A stretch of 64,000 nt of DNA. Origin: Escherichia coli. Its GTDB lineage: Bacteria; Pseudomonadota; Gammaproteobacteria; Enterobacterales; Enterobacteriaceae. The notes under the pieces were generated by a model. The model ran no database searches. It was not told the origin of the DNA and saw only the letters and a list, made by a program, of their open reading frames with translations. Of the stretch, positions 9,285-30,989 are shown in pieces. Positions within the stretch are counted from its first letter, which is position 1. Each line of letters begins with the position of its first letter. Location: assembly GCF_017348835.2 (NCBI RefSeq), contig NZ_CP072315.1. The stretch is one strand, 5' to 3'. The position numbers were made by a program, and so were the translations under genes.

Positions 9285-11705
9285 ATGAAACATCTCGCTT
9301 TTATTACTGCTGTAGCCGGACTCGGTATGTCTGTTCAGGCCCCAGCTCAGATATATGAATCGGCCTTTAAGGACACGAACGGTATTGAGATCCACGCCCC
9401 GTCTTCTCGTCTTATGCTTAATCCGGCATCACCGGTAACTTTGACACTTATTTCAGGTCTTGATCGTTTCGTTAATGTCAAAGTCACGAAAGACACTGGA
9501 ACTGTCATTCTTAATACTACGACTACACGGACGGGTGTATCAGACCGACTAACAGCTGCTGACGGTAGTGAGTTCTACGGCAAAAAAGTAACTTTGCCTG
9601 CTTTGGGTGAAGGCAAATTTGTCGTTCAGATAAACGTGTTAGATCTCAATCAGAAGCCTGTAGCGACCTATAACTATAACTGGCTAATTGATGTCACCCC
9701 TCCAGCGGCAAATGCTCTTACCGCTAATACTGGTTCTGGCTCTACCGCTGGTGACGTGTGGAAGCTTGGATTAGAGGCAACGGGGCAGTATGACTTCACC
9801 TCTTCGGGCGTAAGTGATGCAAATGGTATTGATAAGGGCCTAATATATATTTACAGGCAGGACGGTAGCCTCTACAGCACTACACAGATGCAGTATGACG
9901 TATCCGGCCAAAAGATGTACCACACTTACTCTAAGAATTCAGTTAAGGGAACCGGAATACCAGACAGCAACCTGGATGAAGACTTTACTGCAAAAGTTGT
10001 TATCTTCGATAACGCAGGTAATAGCCGAACGCTGCCAACTCAAAAATTTCGCTACGACAACACGCTGGGTGAGATGACACTGTGGGCCGTTCATGATCCA
10101 AATACGTCTTCCAGCGTCGTACCCGGGGTTTCTAATTATCCGGCTTACAAAGCCGGTATGGTCGTTAACGAAAACCCTATTCGATTAGTCTACCGGATCC
10201 CAAAATCTAACTACCGTGCTTATTCAGAAGGTGGGCTTCAGTTCATCAATCAATATTCCGCCCCCAAAGAGATAGCTGTAGACAGCACTTATGCTTATGT
10301 TGAAATGACTCTTCCCTATGGCTCAATTAATGGGGATATGGCTCGTATGGCGAACTTTGGCCAGTGGGGAGGGTATTATCCGTCATACAGCCTCGTTCTA
10401 AACCCATCTGCAAACCAAACGCCTGCATTTGCGGGTACCTGGGTAGATTTCCTCGATGATAAGGGGAACTGGGTTAAGTGGAAGGATTTTGAGAGTGTGG
10501 CTTCATCACGACTGCCAATTAAAATTTCCCGACTTCGTTTTAACGTTGAAGCCCGGCCCTTTGCACAGGAGATCGGCGGTAAGGCGACCTGCACCATTCC
10601 GGCAGGAAAAACCTCGTGTGAAGCGCCTGAGACGTTTGATATGGCCTTGGGTACCCAGGGCTACAATAGAATCCTTTACTTCGTTCGCAGCATCAGCAAT
10701 CCCATTTTGCGGTCTGAGCAATGGATTATGACACGCTGGAACAATAAACAACTGCCGGTAATAAACTCGATATCATATGACGAGACTAACAAGCAGCTGG
10801 ATGTACTGGCGTCACTTGAAGGCGATGGTAACTGGTTCGACTCGGTCTCATTGAGGGAATTTTATCTTTCCGATAAGAACACCGGTACCCGGATGTCACC
10901 AACAGGCGTAATCAAATCTCGTATCTCAGGTAACTACACGATTGCTTATGATTTATCCCGTCAGTCTGAAGGAAAATACAACGTTGAGGTCAACATCAGG
11001 GACTTCTTCCAGAACCAGACCAATAAAACTTTCGGAGAAATTGCTCTGGATAACACTCCTCCGACAGTGGCCATAACATTCGACGGAAAGCCGGTAAAAG
11101 ACGATACGGTAGTGTACGGCCTGGAGAACCTCAGGATCGCTCTGGCAGATAATCTGACAACCCCGAGGATAACCCGTCTTCAGCTCGTAGGTGGCCCCAC
11201 AGCTGATAACGTTGAGCTTACGTGGTCACCGGCAGGCAAAGATACATACATGCCTGAGTATCCGAGGCTGTTCCCAAATTTCGAACCATCTGAAAATTAT
11301 TCAATTAGCGTAACAGTTGCCGATAGTCAGTCGAATACCAAAACCTATACTCAGAAGTTCAGTTATCTACCGAATAACCTTGTGCAGTTACATAATCTAC
11401 GCACATTGTCGGTCAGTTCACCTCTCAAAACGACAGATGGCGTACCACTTGCGTACCTGTCCACTAACGTTCTGCGTAAGACAAATGGAGAAATTGCTAA
11501 AGGGGTCCAGAACGCAACGCTGACTGTGCGGAAGGATGCAGCCTTCGGTATTAAATTTAATGGGGCACAGGCGGCTCCAGGCGAGTCAGTTGAGGTGCAA
11601 ATAGATATGGGCCAGGGGGATAATCTTCTGTTACCCGTTTATCCTTCCGAAAATGGGAAAGTTGGCACCTCAGAATTCATGATTCAGATCGACGAGTTGA
11701 AGTAA
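9285..11705 (+). CDS. large secreted Ig-like/adhesin-like protein, ~800-aa paralog 2
   Basis: AGGGGAA RBS; signal peptide MKHLAFITAVAGLGMSVQA; conserved ISGLDRF, ATCTIPAGKTSC and C-terminal GLENLRI..LVGGP..FSYLPNNLVQL module shared with paralogs. Confidence 0.75.
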   Translation: MKHLAFITAVAGLGMSVQAPAQIYESAFKDTNGIEIHAPSSRLMLNPASPVTLTLISGLDRFVNVKVTKDTGTVILNTTTTRTGVSDRLTAADGSEFYGKKVTLPALGEGKFVVQINVLDLNQKPVATYNYNWLIDVTPPAANALTANTGSGSTAGDVWKLGLEATGQYDFTSSGVSDANGIDKGLIYIYRQDGSLYSTTQMQYDVSGQKMYHTYSKNSVKGTGIPDSNLDEDFTAKVVIFDNAGNSRTLPTQKFRYDNTLGEMTLWAVHDPNTSSSVVPGVSNYPAYKAGMVVNENPIRLVYRIPKSNYRAYSEGGLQFINQYSAPKEIAVDSTYAYVEMTLPYGSINGDMARMANFGQWGGYYPSYSLVLNPSANQTPAFAGTWVDFLDDKGNWVKWKDFESVASSRLPIKISRLRFNVEARPFAQEIGGKATCTIPAGKTSCEAPETFDMALGTQGYNRILYFVRSISNPILRSEQWIMTRWNNKQLPVINSISYDETNKQLDVLASLEGDGNWFDSVSLREFYLSDKNTGTRMSPTGVIKSRISGNYTIAYDLSRQSEGKYNVEVNIRDFFQNQTNKTFGEIALDNTPPTVAITFDGKPVKDDTVVYGLENLRIALADNLTTPRITRLQLVGGPTADNVELTWSPAGKDTYMPEYPRLFPNFEPSENYSISVTVADSQSNTKTYTQKFSYLPNNLVQLHNLRTLSVSSPLKTTDGVPLAYLSTNVLRKTNGEIAKGVQNATLTVRKDAAFGIKFNGAQAAPGESVEVQIDMGQGDNLLLPVYPSENGKVGTSEFMIQIDELK
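9584..9595. promoter_or_regulatory. palindrome site AAAAGTAACTTT (dispersed family)
   Basis: Read directly; the same site plus flank (AAAAGTWACTTTGCCTGCT) recurs at 34713. Confidence 0.3.
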
Positions 11706-11807
11706 CTACCCGGAGCCGACAGTAAAACTGACGGCTTCAATTTTACTGCCCTCCTCGACTCCGATCAGCCAGTACGTCTTCAGAGATTCGCAAGGAAGAA
11801 CCGAAAG

Positions 11808-11819
11808 AAAAGTTACTTT
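11808..11819. promoter_or_regulatory. palindrome site AAAAGTTACTTT (dispersed family)
   Basis: Read directly, about 100 bp downstream of Ig-like gene 2. Confidence 0.3.
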
Positions 11820-11859
11820 AATCGTACGTTTCCAGCGATGCTTTCAAAAGACAATGCAT

Positions 11860-12275
11860 ACTCGTTGATTACGACAATGGGAGTGAGTGTCGAACCCCTT
11901 GAGTAAGGATACCTGGTAAATATACAGCCCCGGGGATTCTCTTCCTTCAACCGGGGATGACAACGGGAGTGAGTCCGGCAACTCACACCTGTTGTCACTT
12001 CTCTGACATATCGTCATACGAGCTTACTCAAGCGCATCCACAAAGATGGGATCGTTTTGAATCTAAACTGGTACTGGTTAGCCAGTCACTTGCATCTACT
12101 CCCCCGTCGATATTTAAGTGACAATTGTAGTGATCTGCAATACTGGTGTCTCAGAAACACTGACGACGGTAGAGACTCAATACCCTAACCCCTGACAACA
12201 GAAGTGAGCTTAGAGGTGTTACGCTGCTGTCACCTAATGCTTGGGAATTGCCTGACTCACAACCATTGTCATCCG
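11860..12275. repeat. iteron-like inverted-repeat units (left remnant of iteron array split by the IS)
   Basis: Units such as TGACAACGGGAGTGAG...CTCACACCTGTTGTCA match the repeat family at 13990-15320. Confidence 0.5.
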
Positions 12276-13985
12276 GAGCTACTGATTAACGTTGAACCAC
12301 GGCAGCCTGGCGGCTGCAAATTGAAAACCGCCCCGGTTCGTCCTGTTGTTGCCGCACGCCCCGCAGAATATGTATGCTCTGAGGACCTGTTTTATTAAGG
12401 ACTCATCCCCTTATGTTGACCCGCAAAAGTATCGATACAGTTCTGCTCTCTGTTGGTGCTGAGAAGCTCTCACAACGAGAATGGGACTGGATGAAAATGC
12501 TCAAACCCATGGACCCACCACCTGCGATGGTGACGACCTCCATCCTGAAGCGCCGTGGCGATACAGCAGCCCTTACCCTGCTACAGGATACCGGGGTTTA
12601 ATCCATCCTCATGTTGTCCGGTTTTACTCCCCGCCCTCTGAAACGTCTGTTCACAGCCAACCAGTGCTGGACGTCCTTCCTGGATGCGGGCGGTCTGCGC
12701 GATATCGAGGTTGAAGCCGTCACCAAAATGCTGGCCTGCGGCACACGGATACTGGGTGTAAAAGAGTTCGGGTGTGATAACCCGGACTGTCAGCACGTAA
12801 AGTACCTGACCAACTCATGCGGCAGCCGTGCCTGCCCGTCCTGCGGAAAGAAGGCCACAGACCTGTGGACAGCAACACAGCTGAATCGTCTTCCTGACTG
12901 CGACTGGGTACATCTGGTCTTCACCCTGCCGGACACGCTGTGGCCGGTGTTCGAAAGCAACCGCTGGCTGCTGAATGACGTGTGCCGTCTGGCGGTGGAG
13001 AATCTGCTGTATGCCGCCCGAAAACGGGGGCTGGAACCCGGTATCTTCTGCGCCATCCACACGTATGGCCGTCGTCTCAACTGGCATCCGCATGTACATG
13101 TGTCTGTAACCTGTGGAGGTCTGAATAAGCATGGTCAGTGGAAAAAGCTGAGCTTCCTGAAAGACGCGATGCGTTCACGGTGGATGTGGAATATGCGGCA
13201 GCTGCTTCTGAAAGCGTGGTCAGAGGGGATGGCAATGCCGGAGTCGTTGTCACATATCACGACGGAATCACAGTGGAGAAGCCTGGTGCTGAAATCCGGC
13301 GGAAAATACTGGCATGTGTACATGTCGAAGAAGACAGCCGGAGGGCGGAATACGGCACGCTACCTGGGTCGTTATCTGAAGAAGCCACCAATAGCGGCTT
13401 CCCGACTGGCTCATTACAACGGAGGGGCAAGCCTGAGCTTCCGTTACCTGGACCACAAAACGGGAGAAACGGCGACGGAAACGCTGACACAGCGTGAGCT
13501 GGTCGCGAGGCTGAAACAGCACATCCCGGAGAAGTTTTTTAAGATGGTGAGGTACTTCGGGTTCCTTGCCAACCGTGTGTGTGGAGAGAAGCTGCCGCAG
13601 GTGTACCGTGCACTGGGGATGGATAAACCGGAACCAGTGGCGAAAGTGTGCTATGCACAAATGGTGAAACAGTTCCTGAGTCGTGACCCGTTCGAATGCG
13701 TGCTGTGTGGCTGCCGGATGGTATACCGCCGGGCCATTGCGGGGCTGAATGTATCAGGGCTGAAGAAAAACGCGCGGGATATCAGTCTACTGAGGTATAT
13801 GCCGGCCTGACACAGGCTAAGTGTGCCCGGGAATCGGTGAAAGTATAAAAAACAGCCTGTTACGGTATAAAAATCGACCATACAGAGAGGGAAACCACCG
13901 GAGTGGTGGGAAAAGCAGAAAGGCTCACGTGGCATAAGGCGTGGACAATGGTATCGACTGGTTTTTCAATTTCCTATACGTGAAC
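12276..13985 (+). mobile_element. IS91-family insertion sequence (about 1.7 kb, IS1294-like size); boundaries approximate
   Basis: Carries the HUH-Y2 transposase gene; flanked on both sides by the same iteron family; hairpin CCACCGGAGTGGTGG near the right end; GAACC at both junctions. Confidence 0.55.
12611..13810 (+). CDS. tnpA: IS91-family rolling-circle (HUH, Y2) transposase
   Basis: N-terminal zinc-binding cysteines (CPSCGKK), HUH motif WHPHVHVSV, paired tyrosines RYLGRYL. Confidence 0.8.
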   Translation: MLSGFTPRPLKRLFTANQCWTSFLDAGGLRDIEVEAVTKMLACGTRILGVKEFGCDNPDCQHVKYLTNSCGSRACPSCGKKATDLWTATQLNRLPDCDWVHLVFTLPDTLWPVFESNRWLLNDVCRLAVENLLYAARKRGLEPGIFCAIHTYGRRLNWHPHVHVSVTCGGLNKHGQWKKLSFLKDAMRSRWMWNMRQLLLKAWSEGMAMPESLSHITTESQWRSLVLKSGGKYWHVYMSKKTAGGRNTARYLGRYLKKPPIAASRLAHYNGGASLSFRYLDHKTGETATETLTQRELVARLKQHIPEKFFKMVRYFGFLANRVCGEKLPQVYRALGMDKPEPVAKVCYAQMVKQFLSRDPFECVLCGCRMVYRRAIAGLNVSGLKKNARDISLLRYMPA

Positions 13986-13989
13986 CGCT

Positions 13990-15320
13990 GGACTTTAATG
14001 ACAGTGGTAGTGATGGATAGGCTCATTTCCATTGTCGTCATTTTATCGGACAAGCCTCTTCGTCCTACAGGTTTAAGCTGACAATGGTAGTGATTGGATG
14101 ATCTCACTACTGTTGTCACTCAGTTCTTTGAGCGGACCCTTCCCTCGGTTGGTCGGCATTAACAACGGTAGTGACTCGATTGGCTCACTGCCATTGTCAT
14201 CGTGTAAATGACGTACCTTATCAGCTCAGCTGAAAGCAATGACAACGGTAGTGACTCTAATTGCTCACTGCCATTGTCGTCGTGTCTATTGAGAGCCTTA
14301 TCAGTGCACCTGAAAAGCAATGACAACGGTAGTGATTCTAATGGCTCACTACCGTTGTCACCGTGTGTATTGAGAGGATGGTCCACTTAACTGGACGTAT
14401 ATGACAATGGTAGTGACTTTAATAGCTCACTACCATTGTCGGTGTGTGAATTGAGAGGATGAGCAGCTCAGCTGTACGTCCATGACAATGGTAATGACTT
14501 AATGAGCTCACTACCGTTGTCACCCTGTTAATTAAGAGGCTCATCTGCTCTTCTGGAAGGCTATGACAACGGAAGTGACTTGCTGGGCTCACTGCCATTG
14601 TCGCCGTATGAATTGAGAGGATCATCCGCTCTTCTGGATGGCAATGACAACGGTAATGACTTAATAGGCTCACTACCATTGTCACCCTGTGAATTGAGAG
14701 GATGATCTGCTTAACCAGACGGCCATGACAACGGTAGTGACTTTCTGGGCTCAATACCGTTGTCACCCTGTGAGTTAAGAGGTTGACCCGCTCTACTGGA
14801 CGGCCATGACAACGGTAGTCACTTTCTGGGCTCACTACCGTTGTCGCCATATAGAATGAGAGGAGCATCAGCTCAACTGAACGGCAATGACTACAGTAAT
14901 GAGCTGGATGAAGCATAACCATTGACATCTGGCCCAACCGGAAGCCGTATTCGCCAATCCAATCGAGATTCACAATGGCCGTGACTCGCCGCATTAAGTT
15001 CCGGTGTCCTCCTAAAGCTGAACGCACACTCGGAGGACAATGACAATGCCAGTAAGGTACACATCATTACCATTGTCACTATAGCTACCAGAGAAGCCGG
15101 GATTTGAATGTCGATGGTAGTGAGTGGGTCAACTCACTGCCATTGTCACCCCGTTACGATATTTTCCGTTGGATGTACTGGCCAATGAAGTAAAGCGTAG
15201 AAACCGGGTGTTAACAGGTGACTCAGGAGAAAGCGTTGAATTTCGCAATCTCGATCTACATAGGGTGGTAGAGAACAATGACAACGGTAATGACTTTTGA
15301 CTCATTACCGTTGACGTGAA
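13990..15320. repeat. tandem array of about 16 units of ~80 bp, each containing a 15-bp-arm palindrome (TGACAACGGTAGTGA / TCACTACCGTTGTCA); putative Rep-binding iteron / incompatibility array
   Basis: Period about 80 bp read directly; inter-palindrome segments are also conserved (CCTGTGAATTGAGAGGATGA); adjacent to the rep gene. Confidence 0.65.
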
Positions 15321-15390
15321 AGAGCGGGCTGGGACTAACGAAAATCGAAGAAGTAATTTAGCACCCGGAGCCTAAACCGCCGGGTTAACT

Positions 15391-16479
15391 TTAGCTGGCG
15401 TTGCTGTTCTTTTTCTGGCTTCGAAGACTACGAATATAGCGCAGTTCTTCAGCGGTTAAATCATGGACGGTAAGAACATCATCGCCGTCAATCGGGTCAG
15501 CTGGTGGGCATAACTCACCTTCTAAAACAGAAGACCCTGAGTTCTCTTCTTCATCTTCAACCACTTCTAAAGGAGGCTGAGTATTGTTCAAATTCAGATC
15601 GGGATCCCGCTTATGAATCTGGAAGTATACTTTTCCGTCTTTCTTAATTTCGGTGTACTTGAGGTATCCTATCGATGCCAACTCTTCAAGAGCCTTTCTC
15701 ACGGTAGCATTCTGACTATTTGCTCGTGTTTTGAGGTTCAGACGATTTTTCAGCCGAGTAAGGGATATCGGTATAGGATTTGGCGGTAATGACTCTATGA
15801 ACGTATAGAGAGCCTGGGCGCTTTCCTTCTTGGCCAACTCCTTAATTGCCTTCAGCTGCATCAAAACCTTATGATCGTATTGATAGAGCTCGAAAATCTT
15901 AGGATCAACCTGAAGGACAACCTGATCTGATTCCGGGTCTAACAGGGCAGACTGTACCAGATGCGTTGTATAGACTTTGGACGAGTTATTACTGGTGAAC
16001 GACAAGGTAACGGATGCTAACCTGCGTAAGGAGGCGTCTATACGTTTTCTGGACGCTGTAGATGAGCGATAATTTTCAGGCGTACATAGCTTGAGGAATT
16101 CAGTGAATTTTAAGCTTATCGTGTCATTGTTAATCGGATGATTGGCATAGGTTCGAATGATGCCCATCCACGTCTTAAAATCTACTGACATATTAAGACG
16201 CTCACCGACAATTGAAATATTGGTGAACCCCTCGCTCTCCATTAAAGAGAGCGTCTGTAACTCTTTCGTTGCGTCAAAGCCAACCGTTTTATATTCCCGA
16301 TTTTGACGCCCCACACTCTTTGGTGATGGGACGAACAGCCCGAGCCGCATCAAAGCAATAGACTGCACCGTACGGTTGCTGTTAGGACGCAAAATGATGT
16401 CTTTACCTGATTCTTTCTCTCTAACAGAGAAAGCCCTGGTGACCAGGTCCTGCTGCTCAGTATCTTTCTCTTTAGTCAT
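15391..16479 (-). CDS. iteron-type plasmid replication initiator (RepA/RepE-like, IncHI/RepFIB-type)
   Basis: 362-aa protein paralogous to the ORF at 29890 (shared LRLxxF, TDFKxWxGII, YDHKxL, ESIGYL motifs); flanked by iterons on both sides. Confidence 0.7.
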   Translation of the reverse strand: MTKEKDTEQQDLVTRAFSVREKESGKDIILRPNSNRTVQSIALMRLGLFVPSPKSVGRQNREYKTVGFDATKELQTLSLMESEGFTNISIVGERLNMSVDFKTWMGIIRTYANHPINNDTISLKFTEFLKLCTPENYRSSTASRKRIDASLRRLASVTLSFTSNNSSKVYTTHLVQSALLDPESDQVVLQVDPKIFELYQYDHKVLMQLKAIKELAKKESAQALYTFIESLPPNPIPISLTRLKNRLNLKTRANSQNATVRKALEELASIGYLKYTEIKKDGKVYFQIHKRDPDLNLNNTQPPLEVVEDEEENSGSSVLEGELCPPADPIDGDDVLTVHDLTAEELRYIRSLRSQKKNSNAS

Positions 16480-17340
16480 AATAAGTTATCACTGAATGTG
16501 TAAACAGATTGGTGAATAGTAAGCCCCAGCGAACTCTATGTCACTGGATGGATCATTGTGATGATCCATATCTGTGCATAAGTTCTACCTAAAAAAACGA
16601 CTCCACTCATTAAAACTTGGCAAAAACTCTTTGCATACAATGACCTGCAACTCTTATCAACAACGGATCAGATCAAGTTAAAAAGATCTAATGAAAAGTC
16701 ACTACTATTGTCGCTCTGATCACTACTGATGTCAAAAAACTCATTACCAACGTTATAATAATCACTACTAATGTCAAAATAATCACTACTGTTGTCACTG
16801 ATCACGTCTCAGGCCTTGTGCCGTCTGGCCTGGAGGCAGCGGGGATCTCTTTTGATCTATCAGGAACACTAAGGTACTAATTATTGGAACTACCTTGTGG
16901 AAAATGGGGATAAATAAATGCTTAGTTCTTATACAGGTCTCAACTTGCCTCCCTGATAAAAACTGTCGTCAAAGCTAAATCACAGCCACAGGCATTTTCG
17001 GTGGATAAATTTTTGAGAAATAGAAGCATACATGCAGACTCGTGTCGCAAGTAATTGAAAGTAATGATTTATTTAAATAATGCGAGTCACCTTACCTCAC
17101 AGTGGAAGTTTAAGTCTAACCTCACTACCATTGTCACTTAAAATCATTACCAACGTCGAAATAGTCTCTACCATTGTCTTTTAAGTCACTCCCGTTGTCA
17201 CTTATGTCGCTACTGTTGTCAGTGACAATGCTCCAGCCCAGTAACCATGCGGCCTACAGCGTACCGGGATCTTCTTTGTACTCTCTGGCACCTTTGGGAT
17301 CATTTATTGGATCTACATGAGGGATAAAATCTTTTGACGA
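16480..17340. other. putative origin of replication (oriV) for the rep gene at 15391-16479
   Basis: Two clusters of five ~21-bp direct iterons (TCACTACnnTTGTCA; 16690-16800 and 17100-17230), each followed by a GATC-rich segment; AT-rich. Confidence 0.5.
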
Positions 17341-17448
17341 TTTCGTAGTGCAGTTATACCAGCGACTTAGCAAGACAAAAGCTGCAATTTAGTGACGAGT
17401 TACTAGTCTGCCCAACAAGAGCAATGCAGAGAAGATATGTGGTGAAAT

Positions 17449-17482
17449 GACCATGGTAGTGAGTCTAATCACTACCATGGTC
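17449..17482. repeat. perfect 14-bp-arm inverted repeat of iteron-like half-sites (GACCATGGTAGTGA-6nt-TCACTACCATGGTC)
   Basis: Read directly; candidate Rep-dimer operator or terminator for the upstream Ig-like gene. Confidence 0.45.
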
Positions 17483-17586
17483 CGCAGTAAGCGTTACTTA
17501 CGCAATGAACGTCGGACTGATTTGCAACAACATGGGCTACGGCGCATCAGAAGGCGGCCGTTGTGCTTCAGCAAAACAGCCCTGCT

Positions 17587-20043
17587 TTATTTTAATTCTT
17601 CAATGTTAATCATGAACTCAGATCTGCCAGTAAGGCCGGATACAGCAGGGAAAATAGGAAAGCTACGGCTGTCCCCGAGCCCCAAATCCAGTTGAAGCTC
17701 TTTGCTTTCACCTGGCATCGCAGAAACGCCATTTACAGTCACGCCGAATGCAGCGTCCTTACGGACAGTAAGCACTGCGTCCTGAAGCCCTGTAGCGATT
17801 GAACCATCCTTTTTACGCAGCTGGCTGGCATACAGAACAGCCAGAGCAGTATTGTCAGATGTTTTGAGAGAAGCATTGACAGCTAAGGTTTTCAGATTCT
17901 CTAGCCTGACGAGATTGTTTGGAAGGTAGTTAAATTCGACTGAGCTTTCTTTAACGTTGTTCATCTCATCTTTGGCCTGAACTGTGAGAGTGTATGTTTC
18001 GCCTTCATTAAGAGACGGAAAGATCTTGGGATAATTAGGTGCATACAGGTTGTTTCCCAGATTCACCCAAGACAATTCCACCGCATCAGAAACAGGGCCA
18101 CCGCGAAGAGTCATACGGCTTAAGGATGGTTTAGTTAGAGCATCGGTGAGCTGTATACGGACGTTCTCCAGCCCATATACTGTTACGTTTTTGCTGATCG
18201 GTTTTCCTTCGTAGCTAATACTTACAGATGGTGCTGTATTATCAACGACAACTGTTTGATAAGGGAGGTTACCGGTATTGTTGAATGTATCTTGGGCATT
18301 AATCACCACGTTATAACTGCCTTCTGGTACCTCTTTCATGTTGAACTCATACGTGTAGTTCCCAGACGCCATATTTCTACCTGTTTGTTTGCCGGTTACG
18401 CTTATTTCTGCGTTGTTACGGTTTTTATCTGACAACCAAACTCGATTTACATAAACATGGTCGAAATATGAACCATCTCCAGGTTGATTCACGTAAACCT
18501 GGAGAATGTTGGTGGTTTCATTGTAATCAAATCCAGTGACGGAGGGACCCAGTGTATGCCAGGCTATATTCTCCCATATAGGGGCAAAGAAGGTTGCTTC
18601 GGTGGTTGACCTTACTTCATAGCCACTATGAAGATAACCGGTAGTGCCATTTATAATATCCTGGGGCAAAGAGACGGTACAGGTTGTTGAGCCAGCTGGA
18701 ATACTGCATGTTGCTCCGCCAGTGATTTTTTGATCATATGGCCTGGCCTGTACATTGAATCGGATATTAGTAAGTTTTATAGGCATATCAGATGCCTTGA
18801 ACAGGTTCCAGTTTACGCTGTTGAACCATGTTCCATCAGCCTTTTGTCGTTCTATGGGTGAACTTCCCCAAGCCGGACTCTTTACAGAGGCAGGATCCCA
18901 GTTGAGCCAGCTGGCATACTGACCAAGATCTCCTCCAGACCATTGATATGTATTCACAGGTCTATAGTAGTTTCCATCTAAGGCACCCTGTGGCAGCTTA
19001 ACTTCCACGTAGACATAGGTGGCATCTTCGGAAAGGACCTGTACTCCGCCATAGTTATTGGTAATGCTCATGCCACCATTTCGATATGGCTTCCAGTTAG
19101 TTCTTGGGATACGTATAACCAACTTGTAGGGGTTTTCCAGCACTGTAAGGCCTCGTTTAAACGGGACGTATCCCGAAGAAATGCCGGGTACAACACTGGT
19201 GCTTACACGTGAGTCATGAACTGCAAATGGCGTAAATTCTCCCATTTGATCGTCATATAAAAACCGCTGGGGAGGAATGTTAAGCGTATTTCCTGCCAGG
19301 TCCGTAACGATGAAATTGAAGGTGAATTCTTCATCAAGATCACTTGAGGGCATGCCAGCCTGGGTGTTCATATCTTTAATCCACGGATAGAACGCACGTT
19401 TATTGGCTGTGTCATAACTCAGGTTATTGTCGGAGACCACAGAACCATTACTTCGTTTAATGACAAGACGGATCTTGTCAATTCCACTAGCATCCTCAAT
19501 ACCGTCTGCAAATATAGAAAACTGGCCACTACCGCCTCGGCCCAACTCCCAAAGTGGCCCAGAAAGTACCATGTCGTAACCTGCGTTTTGACTCGGATAA
19601 ATACTCTTATAGCGTGGAGGAGTTGTATCAACGATGAAATGATAAGTAGATGTGCTCACTACAGTCTGGCGAATATCCAGAGTTTCATTGACTACAGTAA
19701 AGGTCCCTTCTCCGAGCGCCGGTAGAACCATATCCTTTCCATAGTATTCTGTTCCATCGGCAGCAACGATACGATCTGCAACGCTCGTTTTGGTCGAGAC
19801 GGAGGAATACATAACCTTTTTATCGCTGTCTCGTGTGACCGTCACTCGCTCGTACCGATCAAGACCCGATATCAAGTTCAGAGTCAAAACACCAGCGGGA
19901 TTAAGATATGTTTGTGTTGCAGGTTTGATATTCCGAACAGCCTTATTGGTATCTGTAAATGAGTAGCTAAATACCTGAGCATGTGCCGAAGATACAGTAG
20001 CAAGGGCAGTTGCAACCATGCAGCCAATTAGAGTTTTACGCAT
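17587..20043 (-). CDS. large secreted Ig-like/adhesin-like protein, ~800-aa paralog 3
   Basis: GGAG RBS; signal peptide MRKTLIGCMVATALATVSSAHA; ATCSIPAGSTTC and C-terminal GLENVRI..LRGGP..FNYLPNNLVRLENLKTLAV module shared with paralogs. Confidence 0.75.
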   Translation of the reverse strand: MRKTLIGCMVATALATVSSAHAQVFSYSFTDTNKAVRNIKPATQTYLNPAGVLTLNLISGLDRYERVTVTRDSDKKVMYSSVSTKTSVADRIVAADGTEYYGKDMVLPALGEGTFTVVNETLDIRQTVVSTSTYHFIVDTTPPRYKSIYPSQNAGYDMVLSGPLWELGRGGSGQFSIFADGIEDASGIDKIRLVIKRSNGSVVSDNNLSYDTANKRAFYPWIKDMNTQAGMPSSDLDEEFTFNFIVTDLAGNTLNIPPQRFLYDDQMGEFTPFAVHDSRVSTSVVPGISSGYVPFKRGLTVLENPYKLVIRIPRTNWKPYRNGGMSITNNYGGVQVLSEDATYVYVEVKLPQGALDGNYYRPVNTYQWSGGDLGQYASWLNWDPASVKSPAWGSSPIERQKADGTWFNSVNWNLFKASDMPIKLTNIRFNVQARPYDQKITGGATCSIPAGSTTCTVSLPQDIINGTTGYLHSGYEVRSTTEATFFAPIWENIAWHTLGPSVTGFDYNETTNILQVYVNQPGDGSYFDHVYVNRVWLSDKNRNNAEISVTGKQTGRNMASGNYTYEFNMKEVPEGSYNVVINAQDTFNNTGNLPYQTVVVDNTAPSVSISYEGKPISKNVTVYGLENVRIQLTDALTKPSLSRMTLRGGPVSDAVELSWVNLGNNLYAPNYPKIFPSLNEGETYTLTVQAKDEMNNVKESSVEFNYLPNNLVRLENLKTLAVNASLKTSDNTALAVLYASQLRKKDGSIATGLQDAVLTVRKDAAFGVTVNGVSAMPGESKELQLDLGLGDSRSFPIFPAVSGLTGRSEFMINIEELK

Positions 20044-20198
20044 ATGATGCTCCGGGAATAGGTTATAGCCTTATTCTACGGATTCAGCCTACAAGGTCCG
20101 GTCGGATAAAGTGATAATTTGCCTGTTAAAAGAGACATCAAGTGAGAAAGCAACCAACGTACAGAATGCAAAATGGCGGCAGTGCATCTGGATGACGC

Positions 20199-20211
20199 AA
20201 AAGTAACTTTT
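20199..20211. promoter_or_regulatory. palindrome site AAAAGTAACTTTT (dispersed family)
   Basis: Exact 13-bp palindrome in the divergent promoter region between 20043 and 20416. Confidence 0.4.
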
Positions 20212-20262
20212 TGTATCCACTTTTTTGGATTTTAGCCTTCAAAATGAGTATTCAACCAATCA

Positions 20263-20275
20263 TAAAAGTAACTTT
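20263..20275. promoter_or_regulatory. palindrome site AAAAGTAACTTTT (dispersed family)
   Basis: Second exact copy 64 bp from the previous one in the same intergenic region. Confidence 0.4.
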
Positions 20276-20415
20276 TGATAGACGCTGCTCCTTTATGTTT
20301 GCCAATTGTGCTGATATGTTTGTAAATTCAAGGAAGCGAGATTTTAAAAGCATCTGTTGAGTCAAATTTATGTAAAATAACAGGGAAACCATCACTTCTA
20401 GGTTGAGGAAACCCA

Positions 20416-21042
20416 ATGTTATACATGCTCTTATGCTGTTTTCTGATGCTCAACAGTACATTCGTTATGTTCAGAGCAATGTCTGCAATAAGTAAAGGAT
20501 CCGCTAAAGAAAACCGGTCTGAAATATCGCTGATAGTCCTAGCAACACTTGGAATCGCATCACCATTCATTGTCGCAATGATTACTATTAATGAAAGTAT
20601 GACATCTAAAACAGTAACAGATTTTTCTTTGGGTGCTCAGTGGTACGGAATGGTTTCAGCGGTAGCGCTAATGGGGTTATATGCTCGACGCGTTTGGAAA
20701 GAGAAGAAGTCCTTATTTACTGGCGCTTTCCTGGCCTCTTCCTTAATGGCCTTTATTTTTACTGACAGCCTTGTTTTCGTATCCCAGAAGGACACCGGCG
20801 TTCTGGCTACTTTCGTACTCGATAAAAACGCTGGAGATATTGATTGTAGTCGCCCGGCTATGATTGTCCATTACAGTAAAGGTGTTCCAACGGACTGGCG
20901 TTGCCCAACCAGTATCATGTTGATGGCGTATTCTTCATATCCTTTTTTACCCTGGCCTGAGTATAGCCATGGTACCAGCCAGTCTCTTACGGTTGTTATT
21001 GATACATTTATGGAAAACGCTGTTAATCTCAGCCAAAAATAA
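20416..21042 (+). CDS. integral membrane protein (208 aa)
   Basis: GAGGAAA RBS; several hydrophobic segments; terminator immediately downstream. Confidence 0.55.
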   Translation: MLYMLLCCFLMLNSTFVMFRAMSAISKGSAKENRSEISLIVLATLGIASPFIVAMITINESMTSKTVTDFSLGAQWYGMVSAVALMGLYARRVWKEKKSLFTGAFLASSLMAFIFTDSLVFVSQKDTGVLATFVLDKNAGDIDCSRPAMIVHYSKGVPTDWRCPTSIMLMAYSSYPFLPWPEYSHGTSQSLTVVIDTFMENAVNLSQK

Positions 21043-21047
21043 AAAAT

Positions 21048-21070
21048 AAACCTCACTAGTGAGAGGTTTT
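21048..21070. terminator. putative bidirectional rho-independent terminator
   Basis: Imperfect hairpin AAACCTCAC-TAGT-GAGAGGTTT with T-runs on both strands, between convergent genes. Confidence 0.45.
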
Positions 21071-21099
21071 ATAAACCTGAGCCACCAATCTAATTAACT

Positions 21100-21381
21100 C
21101 TATATTTTTGTTTTAGCTTTTTTAAAGATAGACTTACCGAATAAAACAGCAATTATAGAGCAAAGGCCTGGCGTTAGGACAAAAGCTAATAATGCACTGC
21201 CAAAACTTGTCATTTCAGGCACCAGGAACCAGCTGATAGGCCACGTCAGGGCTGGTAAATTTAGCGGATCATAAAGCGCATGTAGAGCGCTTAACACACA
21301 GTAAAGTGCTAAAAAGCAAACTAGATAAACAACGATCCACATTTTAATTTGCTCAGCAATTTCAAATTTTGGACTGCCCAT
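21100..21381 (-). CDS. small membrane protein (93 aa)
   Basis: Two predicted hydrophobic helices; overlaps the upstream gene by 20 nt (operon). Confidence 0.5.
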   Translation of the reverse strand: MGSPKFEIAEQIKMWIVVYLVCFLALYCVLSALHALYDPLNLPALTWPISWFLVPEMTSFGSALLAFVLTPGLCSIIAVLFGKSIFKKAKTKI

Positions 21382-21823
21382 GCTTTACCTCAGTGGCTGA
21401 ATATTGATGGTTAATATCTTTAATCACCCGTAAGCACTTAGTGCATACCTTAGTTCGATTTGTCTGCTTGTCCAGAGTGTATTTAACTTCAAGTTGACCT
21501 CCAGCATTAAGCAAAGTGAGCATCTCATCTTCTAACACGCTTCGGTAAATGGTCTTGGCCGAGAGTGTGCCCGGTAACGAGTACTCAACATAATTGTTTG
21601 AAACTCTTACCGATTTAGGGATTTTACCACTGAGCTGGGTTTCATTCGTTGAAGGCATTACAGTTACTTTAATCACAGTTGCCGGTGACCAGAAATCCTG
21701 ATAACGCACTTTATGAATTTTATCAGCTCTAAGGCCTAACCACACATTTCCGGCGATAAGAACAATAAGCAATCCATAAACTGATCGTCGAATGTTACGC
21801 CTTTTAATCACAATGTCCCCCAT
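21362..21823 (-). CDS. membrane-anchored protein (153 aa)
   Basis: N-terminal transmembrane segment LLIVLIAGNVWLGL; same operon as neighbours. Confidence 0.5.
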   Translation of the reverse strand: MGDIVIKRRNIRRSVYGLLIVLIAGNVWLGLRADKIHKVRYQDFWSPATVIKVTVMPSTNETQLSGKIPKSVRVSNNYVEYSLPGTLSAKTIYRSVLEDEMLTLLNAGGQLEVKYTLDKQTNRTKVCTKCLRVIKDINHQYSATEVKHGQSKI

Positions 21824-21871
21824 CCCTCAAATATCATTCTAAATAACTGCACCAGGATATCATGAGCGTAA

Positions 21872-22048
21872 TTAATAGAATTCTTCATAACCGGGGTTTT
21901 CAGTTGAGTTTGCGGACTCTTTACTTTGCGGTTTCTCACCCTCTAGTTGAGTATCCCTGACAGGCTTGGATTTACCCATGCTCCTCTGAAAGGTATCCAT
22001 AACAAACTCAATATCTTCTTCTGGCAGGCTGGTGGGTTGGTTGCTCAT
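21872..22048 (-). CDS. small acidic protein (58 aa), translationally coupled; not in ORF track
   Basis: ATG overlaps the stop of the 563-aa gene (ATGA); reads MSNQPTSLPEEDIEFVMDTFQRSMGK...; below the track length cutoff. Confidence 0.35.
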   Translation of the reverse strand: MSNQPTSLPEEDIEFVMDTFQRSMGKSKPVRDTQLEGEKPQSKESANSTENPGYEEFY

Positions 22049-23736
22049 AGGACTTCCTCTTGTTGAATACGTTCGGCGTACAGGATGCGAACCGAAACGG
22101 TCGTGTTTTCAAACTCGTTCTCAAAAACGTCCATCCATTCCGTCCGGAATTCTTCCCCCAAAAGGTTATCGAGCCCCTGAAGAGATAATGGAAGAACGGC
22201 TGCTAGAGATCCCCCGGCTGCGAGATGAGATGCAGCTGCCTGGAGATGCAGCCTGGCCCGGTTATCGGCAAAAGGTGGGTTCATCACGACATAATCAAAC
22301 TTCTTCTGTTGATTAGACTTAGACCATGTGAGGAAGTCAGCTTCTGTCGTATCGTATCCCTTAGCCCGGGAGATAAGGCAATTCAAAGTATCAAGCTCGA
22401 TGCCAGTAACGATCACACCGGCAGGGAATGATTTAAGCAAATCCGCATGGCCAATATTAGGCTCCAGGAGGGTATCCCCTTCCCCTGCACCAAGCAGGGA
22501 AGATACATATTCGCTGATTCGGCAAGATGAAGGGTAAAACTGATGCGATACAATATCAGGCATCTCCCCTATCTGGCCGATGTAACGAATAACCTCACAC
22601 GGATCATAGGAAAATGTCACATCGTATTTTGTTACTGTTGCCCCTAAGAACCGAAGGGTGTCAGCGGCAACACTCGAAGATTTGCGTTCGGCGAGAGACC
22701 CTAAAGATGTCCAGCAACTCCATTTATTGTCCCCGTCATTTTTAAACATCAGTTCAGAAAGCTGCATCCGGGTATCAAAGTCGATGCACTGCTTAAGTAC
22801 AGGGAATGCCTCCAAAGATTTCTTGCTATGAGCCATACGGTCGGCAGGTAATGCCAGCGGTACGATAGCTGATAAAATATTGTTAAGCCGCTCGGCGATA
22901 TCAGGGTGGACGTCAATATGCATTGATCCATTTTTGTAAACCCTGAAACGAATACTGTTGCCATCGATGCAGATCCATTTTCTGAACCCCTCATGTTCGA
23001 CCAACGCCTCAACCAATGATTTGGTGTTATGGATCGCCTTCACCTGTTCGCCACGGAAGAATGCGCATATAACGCGGAGCTCGCTCAGCGGTGAAATGCC
23101 AGACTCTTTAAAATCCACCCTTAATTTCTGCCAGGGGTATTTAGACGGCTCGCAAACTCCGGTAGTGATCATGCGGGTGGAGAACCCAAAAGCTTTGTTT
23201 GTCTTGTGACTGCGGCTCAGAGACTGGAAGACGTCGTAAACCCTTTCTTTAATAAATTGATTGCGGTCATTAAGCAAAGCAACGACTGTGCCCACTACAG
23301 CGTCAGCTGTGAAATCAGGGATCACCTGAGGCGGCATAATATAACGGTCGGCCGTAAACTGCTTATCCCATTCGTTACGTTTGGCATCCGACATGATAGG
23401 CAAAACATCAGTGAGTGCCATAACGCATTTCCAGTATTCTGATCTCAGAGCGTTTTCTGCGAACAAAGCATCCGCTTCTGAGATGCTGTGGTTGTAGCCT
23501 GAGAGATAAGAATAAAGTTTCTGGTGATTGTGGGTTTTGAACTGGACAGCCATGAGTTTCAACAAGCAGAGTTCATCATTATAGGACTCAACAAGATCCG
23601 CGATAATGCCGAGCTCTTTGCGCATATCTGGAAGAAATGTTTCAGGAGAGCTAACCACCAGGCTATGAGAGGTTGTTAAAGCCAGTACGCTGTGACCTGC
23701 ATTATCGGGTTTAGCTTCAGAATCAAGAGATGACAT
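22045..23736 (-). CDS. two-domain protein: unknown N-terminal domain (~380 aa) fused to NPPF-type adenine methyltransferase domain
   Basis: C-terminal LEPNIGHADLL ... FDYVVMNPPF ... GGSLAAVLP is paralogous to the standalone methyltransferase at 7070-7831. Confidence 0.6.
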   Translation of the reverse strand: MSSLDSEAKPDNAGHSVLALTTSHSLVVSSPETFLPDMRKELGIIADLVESYNDELCLLKLMAVQFKTHNHQKLYSYLSGYNHSISEADALFAENALRSEYWKCVMALTDVLPIMSDAKRNEWDKQFTADRYIMPPQVIPDFTADAVVGTVVALLNDRNQFIKERVYDVFQSLSRSHKTNKAFGFSTRMITTGVCEPSKYPWQKLRVDFKESGISPLSELRVICAFFRGEQVKAIHNTKSLVEALVEHEGFRKWICIDGNSIRFRVYKNGSMHIDVHPDIAERLNNILSAIVPLALPADRMAHSKKSLEAFPVLKQCIDFDTRMQLSELMFKNDGDNKWSCWTSLGSLAERKSSSVAADTLRFLGATVTKYDVTFSYDPCEVIRYIGQIGEMPDIVSHQFYPSSCRISEYVSSLLGAGEGDTLLEPNIGHADLLKSFPAGVIVTGIELDTLNCLISRAKGYDTTEADFLTWSKSNQQKKFDYVVMNPPFADNRARLHLQAAASHLAAGGSLAAVLPLSLQGLDNLLGEEFRTEWMDVFENEFENTTVSVRILYAERIQQEEVL

Positions 23737-30765: not shown

Positions 30766-30874
30766 AAGCTACCAGGTATGCACTGGTTATAACATGCTGA
30801 AAAATAAGTTATTTATCAGTGCTATGCTTAGTGCTTCTTTTACTACTGGTCTTACATCTCGGCTTAATGTGCAA

Positions 30875-30887
30875 AAAAGTAACTTTT
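30875..30887. promoter_or_regulatory. palindrome site AAAAGTAACTTTT (dispersed family)
   Basis: Exact 13-bp palindrome about 110 bp downstream of rep. Confidence 0.35.
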
Positions 30888-30989
30888 CAAACGAACTCCT
30901 GACTATTCATCTGTATGCCTTTCTGGCTCAAGCGTACATGCTAGCCCATTCATTAAATGCCGTGGAGCAAGATGGTTTCGTGCGCACTC

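What the first reader, a model, noticed from the sequence alone, without database searches (positions are those of the whole stretch)
17449..17482. Perfect 14-bp-arm palindrome of iteron-like half-sites with an embedded CCATGG
GACCATGGTAGTGA-6nt-TCACTACCATGGTC lies about 1 kb from the rep gene and about 100 bp downstream of Ig-like gene 3. It could be a Rep-dimer operator, a handcuffing site or a terminator; its perfection contrasts with the degenerate array units.
Basis: seen in the sequence. Interest (0 to 1): 0.3.

Follow-up and report, generated by a model that had tools for sequence, protein, structure and literature searches.

The report
Inverted iteron pair beside RepHI2 origin
A perfect 34-bp palindrome next to the replication origin of an IncHI2 resistance plasmid consists of two head-to-head copies of the replication initiator's binding motif, so it is most likely an extra, dispensable docking site for that protein: an ordinary accessory of a known replicon.

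Summary
The palindrome is real and sits exactly where stated: GACCATGGTAGTGA (17449-17462), GTCTAA, TCACTACCATGGTC (17469-17482). The window is an IncHI2 (R478-type) plasmid. Each arm is a full 14-bp core of the RepHI2 iteron (consensus TCACTACCATTGTC), matching at 13 of 14 positions. The two cores lie head to head, as in the inverted pairs inside the known 81-bp "long iterons" downstream of repHI2, but the spacer is 6 nt, not 10. Both arms carry a G at a position where 43 other sites have only T or C. It is not the rep operator: it lies 970 bp from the rep start, beyond both origin iteron arrays. It is a weak terminator candidate: the hairpin is -25 kcal/mol but no U-run follows. It does not match the iterons of the second replicon.

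A natural plasmid that lost 6.6 kb including the palindrome is still a complete conjugative plasmid, so the site is dispensable. All IncHI2 copies found are identical, but background diversity is too low for that to mean anything. Relatives with 85-88% identical Rep lack it at this position.

Best reading: an auxiliary RepHI2-binding site contributing to titration or looping control, and perhaps a barrier at the origin's edge. Binding is untested. It is a new member of a known kind, of low interest.

The parts
17449..17462 (-). Left arm: RepHI2 iteron core in reverse orientation (reads TCACTACCATGGTC on the minus strand)
   Evidence: It matches the consensus TCACTACCATTGTC at 13 of 14 positions. 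The G at position 11 is unique among 43 sites.
17463..17468 (.). 6-nt asymmetric spacer GTCTAA. The array pairs have a 10-nt spacer.
17469..17482 (+). Right arm: RepHI2 iteron core TCACTACCATGGTC
17118..17224 (+). Origin iteron array 2: five direct 21-22-bp iterons with cores at 17122, 17144, 17165, 17186 and 17207
17226..17335 (.). GATC-containing conserved origin block, copy 2. It is part of a ~423-bp tandem duplication. Homology with the 85-88% relatives ends here.
   Evidence: (families D6, D11)
16695..16800 (+). Origin iteron array 1: five direct 21-bp iterons. Neighbouring iterons create a sigma70-like promoter (16735..16707) that points at rep.
16803..17010 (.). GATC block copy 1, DnaA-box-like sites (16896-16913 and 17000-17008) and the moderately AT-rich (about 52-68% A+T) stretch between the two iteron arrays. 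This is the likely origin core.
   Evidence: The layout is conserved in the relative L001.
15391..16479 (-). repHI2, a Rep3-class initiator with two winged-helix domains (WH1 and WH2)
   Evidence: Annotated repHI2 in 1,100+ plasmids. It is 50-60% identical to proteins that hit Pfam Rep3_N and Rep3_C. The predicted model matches RctB and RepE.
15282..15313 (-). Inverted iteron pair just after the rep stop codon (12-bp perfect arms, 8-nt spacer), called terminator-like
   Evidence: Equivalent post-rep iteron palindromes occur in RepFIB, Morganella, Xenorhabdus and Pantoea relatives.
13944..15147 (.). Array of ~81-bp 'long iterons', each with a head-to-head iteron pair (GACAAYGGTAGTGA-10 nt-TCACTACCRTTGTC). 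This is the presumed control locus.
   Evidence: Literature on R478 as cited in PMC4980987 and PMC8490738.
11873..12298 (.). Left end of the same array of iteron-like sites, cut off from the rest by an IS91-family insertion (~12299-13977)
17587..20043 (-). Ig-like domain gene (DUF4165 + Big_3), transcribed towards the palindrome, the origin and rep

Best explanation
The palindrome is a solitary pair of RepHI2 iteron cores in head-to-head orientation, lying about 115 bp outside the second copy of the origin.

Proposed mechanism:
- RepHI2, a Rep3-type initiator with two winged-helix domains, binds each arm. Two monomers are more likely than one dimer of fixed geometry.
- The bound protein removes a little initiator from the pool (titration).
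- It can also pair, through Rep-Rep contacts, with Rep on the origin iterons about 230-330 bp away or on the 81-bp repeat array about 2.1-3.5 kb away.
- This adds to the looping or handcuffing type of negative control that the large downstream array presumably provides.
- Because it faces the 3' end of the Ig-like gene, the Rep-loaded, hairpin-prone site may also hinder transcription from running into the origin.

Shown here: sequence identity to the iterons, the architecture, the position, the fold class of Rep, and dispensability.

Inferred: Rep binding, pairing, and any effect on copy number or transcription.
For: - Each arm matches the 14-bp iteron core at 13 of 14 positions. All 9 positions at which one base is found in at least 39 of the 43 sites, other than position 11, match.
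- The head-to-head arrangement is that of the ~14 inverted pairs in the 81-bp array downstream of rep, and the left flank AATGAC is shared.
- The only three perfect inverted repeats of 14 bp or more in the window are iteron pairs, against zero in simulations.
- The motif is confined to the replicon: 41 of 43 matches lie in 11873-17482.
- The iterons of the second replicon are unrelated.
- RepHI2 belongs to the Rep3 WH1-WH2 class. Of 30 family members, 27 hit Rep3_N and 18 hit Rep3_C. The model matches RctB domains 2-3 and the RepE dimer-operator structure 2z9o. In this class, binding to both iterons and inverted repeats, control loci and handcuffing are documented (PMC13028717; PMC4857107).
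- Solitary perfect iteron palindromes recur at replicon edges in relatives and track each lineage's own iteron sequence.
- The spacer between cores varies from 6 to about 19 nt across the family. This fits independent binding to each arm better than a single dimer geometry.
Against: - No binding data exist.
- Both arms carry G at position 11, where the 43 other sites in the window have T (39) or C (4). Relatives show one G among ~39 matched sites (the same site recurs in a second plasmid of that lineage). Affinity for Rep could therefore be reduced or altered.
- The spacer is 6 nt, not the canonical 10.
- Two cores among about 45 can have only a small titration effect.
- The 85-88% relatives have the same origin layout but no such site beyond array 2.
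- A natural deletion of 16929-23570 leaves a complete 200-kb plasmid typed as conjugative. That plasmid keeps a second replicon, so this says little about RepHI2 control.
- Invariance across 1,122 plasmids, 4 genomes and 6 metagenome contigs is uninformative. The flanks differ at only 13 of 3,171 positions.
Confidence: 0.5

Rival explanations
1. It is a transcription terminator or 3'-end hairpin for the Ig-like gene. It acts at the RNA level, stops or stabilises the transcript, and keeps RNA polymerase out of the origin. The iteron sequence would merely be the raw material from which the hairpin was built.
For: - It lies 104 nt downstream of the stop codon, on the same strand.
- It is the strongest hairpin between the gene and the origin: -25.1 kcal/mol, z = -6.8.
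- No canonical terminator is found elsewhere in 16300-17800.
- The analogous iteron palindrome after rep (15313..15282) is called terminator-like. The Morganella relative's post-rep palindrome is followed by TTTTAT.
- Perfect symmetry with variable loop length across the family fits selection on a hairpin.
Against: - The tail is AUUUCACCAC, with only 3 U, and the scan does not call it.
- On the plus strand the tail is CGCAGUAAG.
- Stem GC content is only 50%.
- The perfect palindromes in L003, L007 and L105 also lack U-runs, so termination is not the common theme.
- There is no Rfam match.
Confidence: 0.2
2. It has no selected function. It is a stray iteron pair created by duplication, inversion or template switching at the edge of a repeat-rich replicon. 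It stays perfect because it is recent, or because hairpin-templated repair homogenises the arms.
For: - It is absent at this position from the nearest relatives, which have the same origin layout.
- It is dispensable in a natural deletion.
- IncHI2 diversity is too low to show constraint.
- The same odd base (G11) in both arms is what copying one arm from the other would give.
- The region is a hot spot for rearrangement, with an IS91-family insertion and variable unit number in the array.
Against: - Most array pairs with the same hairpin potential are imperfect: 2 of ~14 are perfect. All three solitary palindromes seen are perfect, including two related ones that differ by compensatory changes in both arms. 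This hints at constraint on the solitary sites.
- Even a neutral iteron pair would still bind Rep if the sequence is competent.
Confidence: 0.2
3. It is the operator of repHI2: a Rep dimer binds the inverted repeat and represses rep transcription, as in F (repE) or pPS10 (repA).
For: - It is an inverted repeat that shares sequence with the iterons.
- Rep is of the RepE class.
- Dimer binding to operators is documented for that class.
Against: - It lies 970 bp from the rep start, with two iteron arrays and the origin in between.
- No promoter-like site lies at the palindrome.
- Promoter-like sites that point at rep lie at 16544..16516 and inside iteron array 1.
- The arms are whole iteron cores, not the partial iteron of F or pPS10 operators (that comparison is from memory).
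- rep survives intact in a plasmid that lacks the site.
Confidence: 0.03
4. It is a site for another protein: the second initiator encoded at 29890-30765, or a tyrosine recombinase (the 14-6-14 layout resembles a Xer or lox-type core site).
For: - Arms around a 6-nt asymmetric spacer is the layout of recombinase core sites.
- Tyrosine recombinase genes sit next to rep in RepFIB-type relatives.
Against: - The arms are the RepHI2 iteron.
- The second replicon's repeats are of the AAAAGCATTTGAATGAAT type and unrelated.
- There is no resemblance to the XerC and XerD arms of dif or cer (consensus from memory).
- ACCATGGT occurs nowhere else in the window.
Confidence: 0.02

Closest known systems
81-bp 'long iterons' of the RepHI2A replicon of R478 (Page et al. 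2001; Gilmour et al. 2004, as cited in PMC4980987 and PMC8490738)
   Same: Same plasmid family and the same 14-bp core. Two cores lie head to head, and the AATGAC left flank is shared.
   Different: - Solitary rather than tandem.
- Spacer 6 nt rather than 10.
- No homology to the other ~40 bp of the unit.
- It lies on the opposite side of rep and the origin.
- G at core position 11 in both arms.
Rep-dimer operators of Rep3 plasmids (F repE operator, PDB 2z9o; pPS10 repA operator)
   Same: An inverted repeat built from iteron sequence, and an initiator of the same WH1-WH2 fold class.
   Different: - It does not overlap the rep promoter and lies 970 bp away.
- The arms are full iteron cores, not a partial iteron.
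- The distance between the putative outer TGACCA hexamers (30 bp) is much larger than I recall for F (from memory).
- Dimer binding is untested.
Control iteron loci outside the origin (F incC; P1 incA)
   Same: Initiator-binding repeats outside the origin that lower copy number by titration and looping or handcuffing (PMC13028717). The RepHI2 81-bp array plus this palindrome would be the analogue.
   Different: - Those loci hold 5-9 iterons. This site holds only two cores and is a perfect palindrome.
- Any effect on copy number is untested.
pSC101 IR-1 (a RepA-binding inverted repeat next to the iterons, distinct from the promoter-overlapping IR-2) - from memory
   Same: An iteron-related inverted repeat near the origin that is not the rep promoter operator.
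   Different: A different Rep lineage and sequence. IR-1 abuts the iterons, whereas this site is ~225 bp from them. The comparison rests on recollection and was not tested here.
39-mer negative-control sites of Vibrio cholerae chromosome 2 (RctB)
   Same: The best structural match of the RepHI2 model is RctB domains 2-3. RctB has a second class of binding site that restrains initiation (abstract of PMC3401445).
   Different: 39-mers are a distinct sequence class from the 12-mer iterons. Here the site is simply two iteron cores.
Post-rep iteron palindromes of RepFIB-family replicons (seen here in E. coli RepFIB, Morganella, Xenorhabdus, Pantoea, and RepHI2 itself at 15282-15313)
   Same: Perfect head-to-head pairs of the lineage's own iteron, located just after a gene's 3' end.
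   Different: Those follow rep itself, and some have T-rich tails. This one follows an unrelated Ig-like gene on the far side of the origin and has no U-run.

Membership tests
RepHI2 iteron (initiator-binding site of this replicon) | Matches the 14-bp core TCACTACYRTTGTC | tested here: met
   13 of 14 positions in each arm. All 9 positions at which one base is found in at least 39 of the 43 sites, other than position 11, match.
RepHI2 iteron (initiator-binding site of this replicon) | Pyrimidine (T, rarely C) at core position 11 | tested here: not met
   G in both arms. The 43 other sites in the window have T (39), C (4), G (0). Relatives show one G11 site (L001 1165-1178; the same site in another plasmid of that lineage, L003 3638).
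RepHI2 iteron (initiator-binding site of this replicon) | Bound by RepHI2 | not testable with these tools
   Needs EMSA, footprinting or ChIP.
Inverted pair of the 81-bp long iterons | Two cores head to head, with the TCAC ends facing each other | tested here: met
Inverted pair of the 81-bp long iterons | 10-nt spacer (start-to-start 24) | tested here: not met
   The spacer is 6 nt (start-to-start 20). Eleven of the array pairs have 24.
Inverted pair of the 81-bp long iterons | Embedded in a tandem ~81-bp unit with a conserved right-hand part (..GTGTGAATTGAGAGGAT..) | tested here: not met
   Alignment to 14 units shows matches only in the cores and the AATGAC flank. It is solitary.
Rep-dimer operator of Rep3 plasmids (F repE, pPS10 repA) | Inverted repeat sharing sequence with the iterons | tested here: met
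Rep-dimer operator of Rep3 plasmids (F repE, pPS10 repA) | Overlaps the promoter of the rep gene | tested here: not met
   It lies 970 bp from the rep ATG. No promoter-like site is at the palindrome; candidates lie at 16544..16516 and 16735..16707.
Rep-dimer operator of Rep3 plasmids (F repE, pPS10 repA) | Initiator has the WH1-WH2 (Rep3) fold | tested here: met
   Homologues at 50-60% identity hit Rep3_N (27 of 30) and Rep3_C (18 of 30). The model matches RctB and RepE 2z9o. RepHI2 itself is below the Pfam threshold.
Rep-dimer operator of Rep3 plasmids (F repE, pPS10 repA) | Bound by Rep dimers and represses transcription | not testable with these tools
   Needs biochemistry and reporter fusions.
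Intrinsic (Rho-independent) terminator | Stable stem-loop downstream of a gene on the same strand | tested here: met
   14-bp stem, 6-nt loop, -25.1 kcal/mol, 104 nt after the stop codon.
Intrinsic (Rho-independent) terminator | U-rich tract directly after the stem | tested here: not met
   The tail is AUUUCACCAC on the minus strand and CGCAGUAAGC on the plus strand. It is not listed by the terminator scan.
Tyrosine-recombinase core site (Xer/dif/cer type) | Inverted arms around a 6-8-nt central region | tested here: met
   14-6-14 layout.
Tyrosine-recombinase core site (Xer/dif/cer type) | Arms resemble recombinase-binding consensus rather than another protein's site | tested here: not met
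   The arms are the RepHI2 iteron. There is no likeness to the dif XerC and XerD arms (consensus from memory).

The most novel reading that the evidence does not exclude
Perfectly symmetric iteron palindromes may be a distinct class of site in RepHI2/RepFIB-type replicons. Examples are the one at 17449-17482, the one after rep, and the HNH-adjacent ones in relatives. They would be kept symmetric by compensatory change and would work as extruded hairpins or cruciforms. For example, a hairpin stem could rebuild a double-stranded iteron on single-stranded DNA (lagging strand, or the strand entering by conjugation), letting Rep load there. Alternatively, a Rep-clamped hairpin could act as a factor-dependent barrier that insulates the origin from transcription of the neighbouring Ig-like gene.
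Probability: 0.08. Interest if true: 0.55.

Novelty: new member of a known kind. Interest (0 to 1): 0.2.

Why it matters
IncHI2 plasmids are major carriers of mcr and other resistance genes (background in PMC6764697). How their copy number is controlled is little studied beyond the original cloning of RepHI2A. If the palindrome binds RepHI2, it is one more element of that control circuit. It would also be a compact, perfectly symmetric probe for asking whether this initiator binds inverted sites as monomers or as dimers. On its own, though, it is a small and dispensable accessory. Its main value is in completing the map of the replicon: two origin iteron arrays, a post-rep palindrome, the 81-bp array, and this outlying pair.

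Tried and rejected
1. Operator of rep. Rejected on position and the absence of a promoter.
2. Site for the second initiator (29890-30765). Rejected because its repeats are unrelated.
3. Relic of a whole 81-bp unit. Rejected because there is no homology outside the cores.
4. Known RNA family. None found in 11000-21000 at E<=1.
5. Conservation test within IncHI2. Uninformative: there are only two haplotypes, with 13 differences in 3,171 bp and none in the 34 bp. All 1,122 plasmids, 4 genomes and 6 metagenome contigs carry the identical palindrome.
6. Search of 100,044 species genomes for GGTAGTGA-N6-TCACTACC. It gave 93 hits, about the chance number. Only the 4 IncHI2-bearing genomes have iterons around the hit, so no divergent orthologue was found.
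7. Orthologous position in 85-88% Rep relatives. There is no palindrome; homology ends at window ~17330 and a small gene follows.
8. Small ORF 17447-17695 that starts in the palindrome. It has no family hit, runs antisense to the Ig-like gene's 3' end, and is unrelated by eye to the 82-aa gene at the equivalent place in relatives. Treated as spurious.
9. Direct family assignment of RepHI2. Pfam, NCBIfam and PDB sequence searches gave nothing. It was resolved only through homologues and a structure model.
10. The primary papers on RepHI2A (Page 2001; Gilmour 2004) are not held. I therefore cannot say whether they mention this palindrome.

Full report
**What the window is.** The stretch 15300-17700 is at least 99% identical to 1,121 plasmids in PLSDB, from Escherichia, Salmonella, Enterobacter, Citrobacter and Klebsiella. 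They are typed IncHI2A and annotated [quoted passage not shown] flanked by "Ig-like domain-containing protein". The window is therefore an IncHI2 (R478-type) resistance plasmid, and the finding lies in its RepHI2 replicon.

**The observation.** The sequence read gives GACCATGGTAGTGA at 17449-17462, GTCTAA at 17463-17468 and TCACTACCATGGTC at 17469-17482. The repeat finder reports 14-nt arms, 100% complementary, 6 nt apart (I5).
- repHI2 is the minus-strand ORF 16479..15391, so the palindrome starts 970 bp from the rep start codon.
- The 818-aa Ig-like gene (DUF4165, Big_3_2, Big_3_3) is 20043..17587 on the minus strand, so the palindrome ends 104 nt past its stop codon.
- Perfect inverted repeats with arms of 14 bp or more and loops up to 20 nt number three in the window and zero in 30 Markov simulations.
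- ACCATGGT occurs only in the two arms.

**Anatomy of the replicon.** The core TCACTACCATGGTC matches 43 places in the window within three mismatches, against 3.6 expected. Forty-one of them lie between 11873 and 17482. They fall into four groups.
- **Origin arrays.** Two arrays of five direct 21-bp iterons lie upstream of rep, at 16695-16800 and 17118-17224. Each is followed by a ~100-bp GATC-containing block. Together they form a ~423-bp tandem duplication. DnaA-box-like sequences (16896-16913, 17000-17008) and moderately AT-rich (about 52-68% A+T) DNA lie between the arrays.
- **Post-rep pair.** A head-to-head pair lies 75 nt after the rep stop codon at 15282-15313. The terminator scan calls it.
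- **Long array.** A long array of ~81-bp units spans 13944-15147. Each unit holds a head-to-head pair, GACAAYGGTAGTGA-10 nt-TCACTACCRTTGTC. The array continues at 11873-12298 on the far side of an IS91-family insertion, which is absent from pSTM6-275.
- **The solitary palindrome** at 17449-17482.

The 81-bp units are the published "long iterons" of R478. PMC4980987 describes iterons of "up to even 76-bp". [quoted passage not shown] Both cite Page 2001 and Gilmour 2004, which I could not read.

**How the palindrome compares with the other sites.** I tabulated 43 sites.
- Positions 1, 2, 5, 7, 12, 13 and 14 are (near-)invariant; position 3 is A in 39 of 43; position 9 is A or G; position 11 is T in 39, C in 4 and G in none.
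- Both arms of the palindrome are consensus everywhere except position 11, where both have G. That change creates CCATGG.
- Aligned with 14 array units, the palindrome shares only the two cores and the AATGAC left flank. Its spacer is 4 nt shorter, and the other ~40 bp of the unit are unrelated.
- It is therefore not a decayed 81-bp unit. It is a free-standing pair with non-canonical spacing.
- Its perfection is not unique: units at 14321-14360 and 14403-14440 are equally perfect.

**The protein.**
- RepHI2 gives no hit in Pfam, NCBIfam or PDB sequence searches.
- It is 50-62% identical to hundreds of RepFIB-type "RepB family" initiators.
- Of a 30-member alignment, 27 members hit Rep3_N (WH1) and 18 hit Rep3_C (WH2).
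- An AlphaFold model (mean pLDDT 69) matches RctB domains 2-3 (E 4e-7) and the RepE dimer-operator complex 2z9o (E 5e-4).
- RepHI2 is therefore a tandem winged-helix initiator. In this class, monomers bind iterons, dimers bind inverted repeats at the rep operator, and iteron-bound protein pairs DNA (handcuffing or looping) (PMC13028717; PMC4857107).

**Is it the rep operator? No.**
- Both origin arrays lie between the palindrome and rep.
- The promoter scan finds nothing at the palindrome. It finds sites pointing at rep at 16544..16516 and inside array 1 at 16735..16707, where neighbouring iterons supply the -35 and -10 hexamers.

**Is it a terminator? Weakly.**
- As RNA on the Ig-gene strand it folds into a -25.1 kcal/mol hairpin, better than all 200 shuffles.
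- No canonical terminator is found between the gene and the origin.
- The tail, however, is AUUUCACC and the scan does not list the palindrome.
- The idea is not empty, because iteron palindromes directly after rep occur in RepHI2 (called terminator-like) and in four RepFIB-type relatives. Some of those have T-rich tails: TTTTAT in the Morganella relative and CTTATATT in E. coli RepFIB. Others have none, such as Pantoea.

**Is it a site for something else? No.**
- The second Rep3 paralogue at 29890-30765 (43% identical) has unrelated repeats.
- The 14-6-14 layout recalls a recombinase core site, but the arms are the RepHI2 iteron.

**Comparative evidence.**
- Within IncHI2 there are essentially two haplotypes. 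They differ at 13 of 3,171 positions around the origin, none in the palindrome.
- All 1,122 plasmids, 4 species genomes and 6 metagenome contigs that hold the flanks have the identical 34 bp. This says nothing about constraint.
- Relatives with 85-88% identical Rep have the same layout: rep, five iterons, a moderately AT-rich stretch, five iterons, GATC block. These are the Citrobacter-type plasmids L001 and L003 and a Logan contig, L007. Homology stops at window ~17330, a small gene follows, and there is no iteron-like sequence beyond.
- A scan of 100,044 species genomes for the spacer-6 pair found only IncHI2 plasmids above chance. The palindrome is therefore specific to IncHI2 proper.
- These relatives do carry one solitary perfect iteron palindrome of their own. 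It is tail to tail, with 18-bp arms, about 70 bp upstream of an HNH endonuclease gene at the far end of the long array.
- Between L007 and L003 that palindrome differs at two positions (CCA versus CTG), changed in both arms, within poorly conserved flanks. Solitary palindromes thus stay perfect, whereas only 2 of ~14 array pairs are perfect.
- The spacer between cores across the family ranges from 6 to about 19 nt, in both orientations. That argues against one fixed dimer geometry. It fits independent binding to each arm, or selection on a hairpin.

**Natural experiments.**
- In pSI102-1, the same IS91-family element sits at GTTC 16925-16928, between array 1 and the rest of the origin, and everything else is retained.
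- In p22C057LT1, the IS is at the same point and is followed directly by window 23571. Array 2, the palindrome and the Ig-like gene are gone. The record is nonetheless a complete circular 200,586-bp plasmid typed conjugative, IncHI2A plus rep_cluster_1088.
- The palindrome is therefore dispensable for maintenance, at least when the second replicon is present.

**Verdict.**
- The most likely identity is an auxiliary RepHI2-binding site made of two inverted iteron cores at the outer edge of the origin (confidence about 0.5 that it binds Rep and contributes, modestly, to titration, looping or barrier functions).
- A purely RNA-level terminator or hairpin role (0.2) and a neutral by-product (0.2) remain open. 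These readings are not mutually exclusive.
- The rep-operator reading is rejected.
- It is a new member of a known kind, namely iteron-derived inverted repeats of Rep3 plasmids, in a long-sequenced plasmid family. It is of low general interest.
- The more interesting thread is the family-wide habit of keeping perfect iteron palindromes at gene ends around the replicon. That lies outside the finding and is recorded under things noticed.

Noticed in passing
window 12299-13977 (transposase ORF 12611-13810); also L005 and L006: An IS91-family (IS1294-like) element interrupts the 81-bp long-iteron array. The identical IS sits at GTTC 16925-16928 inside the origin in pSI102-1. In p22C057LT1 it sits at the same point and is accompanied by a 6.6-kb deletion (16929-23570). 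The RepHI2 replicon seems to be a recurrent target for this IS.
   Followed up: partly
window 16695-16913 and 17118-17335: The origin is a ~423-bp tandem duplication of [five 21-bp iterons + GATC-rich block + DnaA-box-like sequence]. The same two-array layout is kept in relatives with 85-88% identical Rep.
   Followed up: partly
window 17234-17315: This block is 79-85% identical to a stretch just upstream of Rep3 initiator genes in many IncFIB-type E. coli and Klebsiella plasmids (e.g. p15WZ-82_Vir, L106 2501-2566). It is probably a conserved origin core shared across the family.
   Followed up: partly
window 16735..16707 and 17201..17173 (minus strand): Adjacent iterons at 21-bp spacing generate sigma70-like promoters (TTGACA-17-GACAAT) pointing towards rep. 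Rep binding to the origin iterons could thereby repress rep, as in P1 (P1 comparison from memory).
   Followed up: no
window 15282-15313; L101 3507-3543; L102 8053-8089; L103 8014-8053; L105 8129-8168: A perfect head-to-head palindrome made of the lineage's own iteron lies right after the rep stop codon in RepHI2, E. coli RepFIB, and Morganella, Xenorhabdus and Pantoea relatives. Some have T-rich tails and look like rep terminators that are also Rep sites.
   Followed up: partly
L007 9280-9325; L003 5257-5300: Relatives with 85-88% identical Rep carry a solitary perfect tail-to-tail iteron palindrome (18-bp arms) about 70 bp upstream of an HNH endonuclease gene. The two lineages differ at two positions, changed in both arms (compensatory).
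   Followed up: partly
window 29890-30765 and 30860-31500: A second Rep3-type initiator gene (43% identical to RepHI2; presumably the RepHI1A(R478)-type replicon) has its own, unrelated repeats (CATTCATNNAAATGCTTTT type) in both orientations.
   Followed up: partly
window 15391-16479: RepHI2 and its 85-88% relatives fall below every Pfam and NCBIfam model and PDB sequence search, although 27 of 30 family members hit Rep3_N. The named NCBI product is evidently assigned by another route.
   Followed up: yes
L102, L103, L104: Rep proteins 53-60% identical to RepHI2 sit on ~100-kb elements. These encode ribonucleotide reductase, DNA polymerase III alpha, RecA, gp32-like and SbcCD-like proteins, which makes them look like SSU5-type phage-plasmids.
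   Followed up: no
window 16548-16569: A 9-bp-arm palindrome, ATGGATCAT-TGTG-ATGATCCAT, carries two GATC sites and abuts the -35 of the candidate rep promoter (16544..16516). It could be a Dam- or SeqA-sensitive element or the real operator.
   Followed up: no
window 14419-15027 and 17447-17695: Two ORFs look spurious. The 202-aa ORF lies entirely inside the repeat array. The 82-aa ORF starts in the palindrome (ATGACCATGG) and runs antisense into the Ig-like gene.
   Followed up: partly
window 9285-11705 (+) and 17587-20043 (-): Two of the three ~800-aa Ig-like (DUF4165/Big_3) genes are transcribed convergently towards the RepHI2 replicon from either side. The simple scan finds no canonical terminator after either.
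   Followed up: partly
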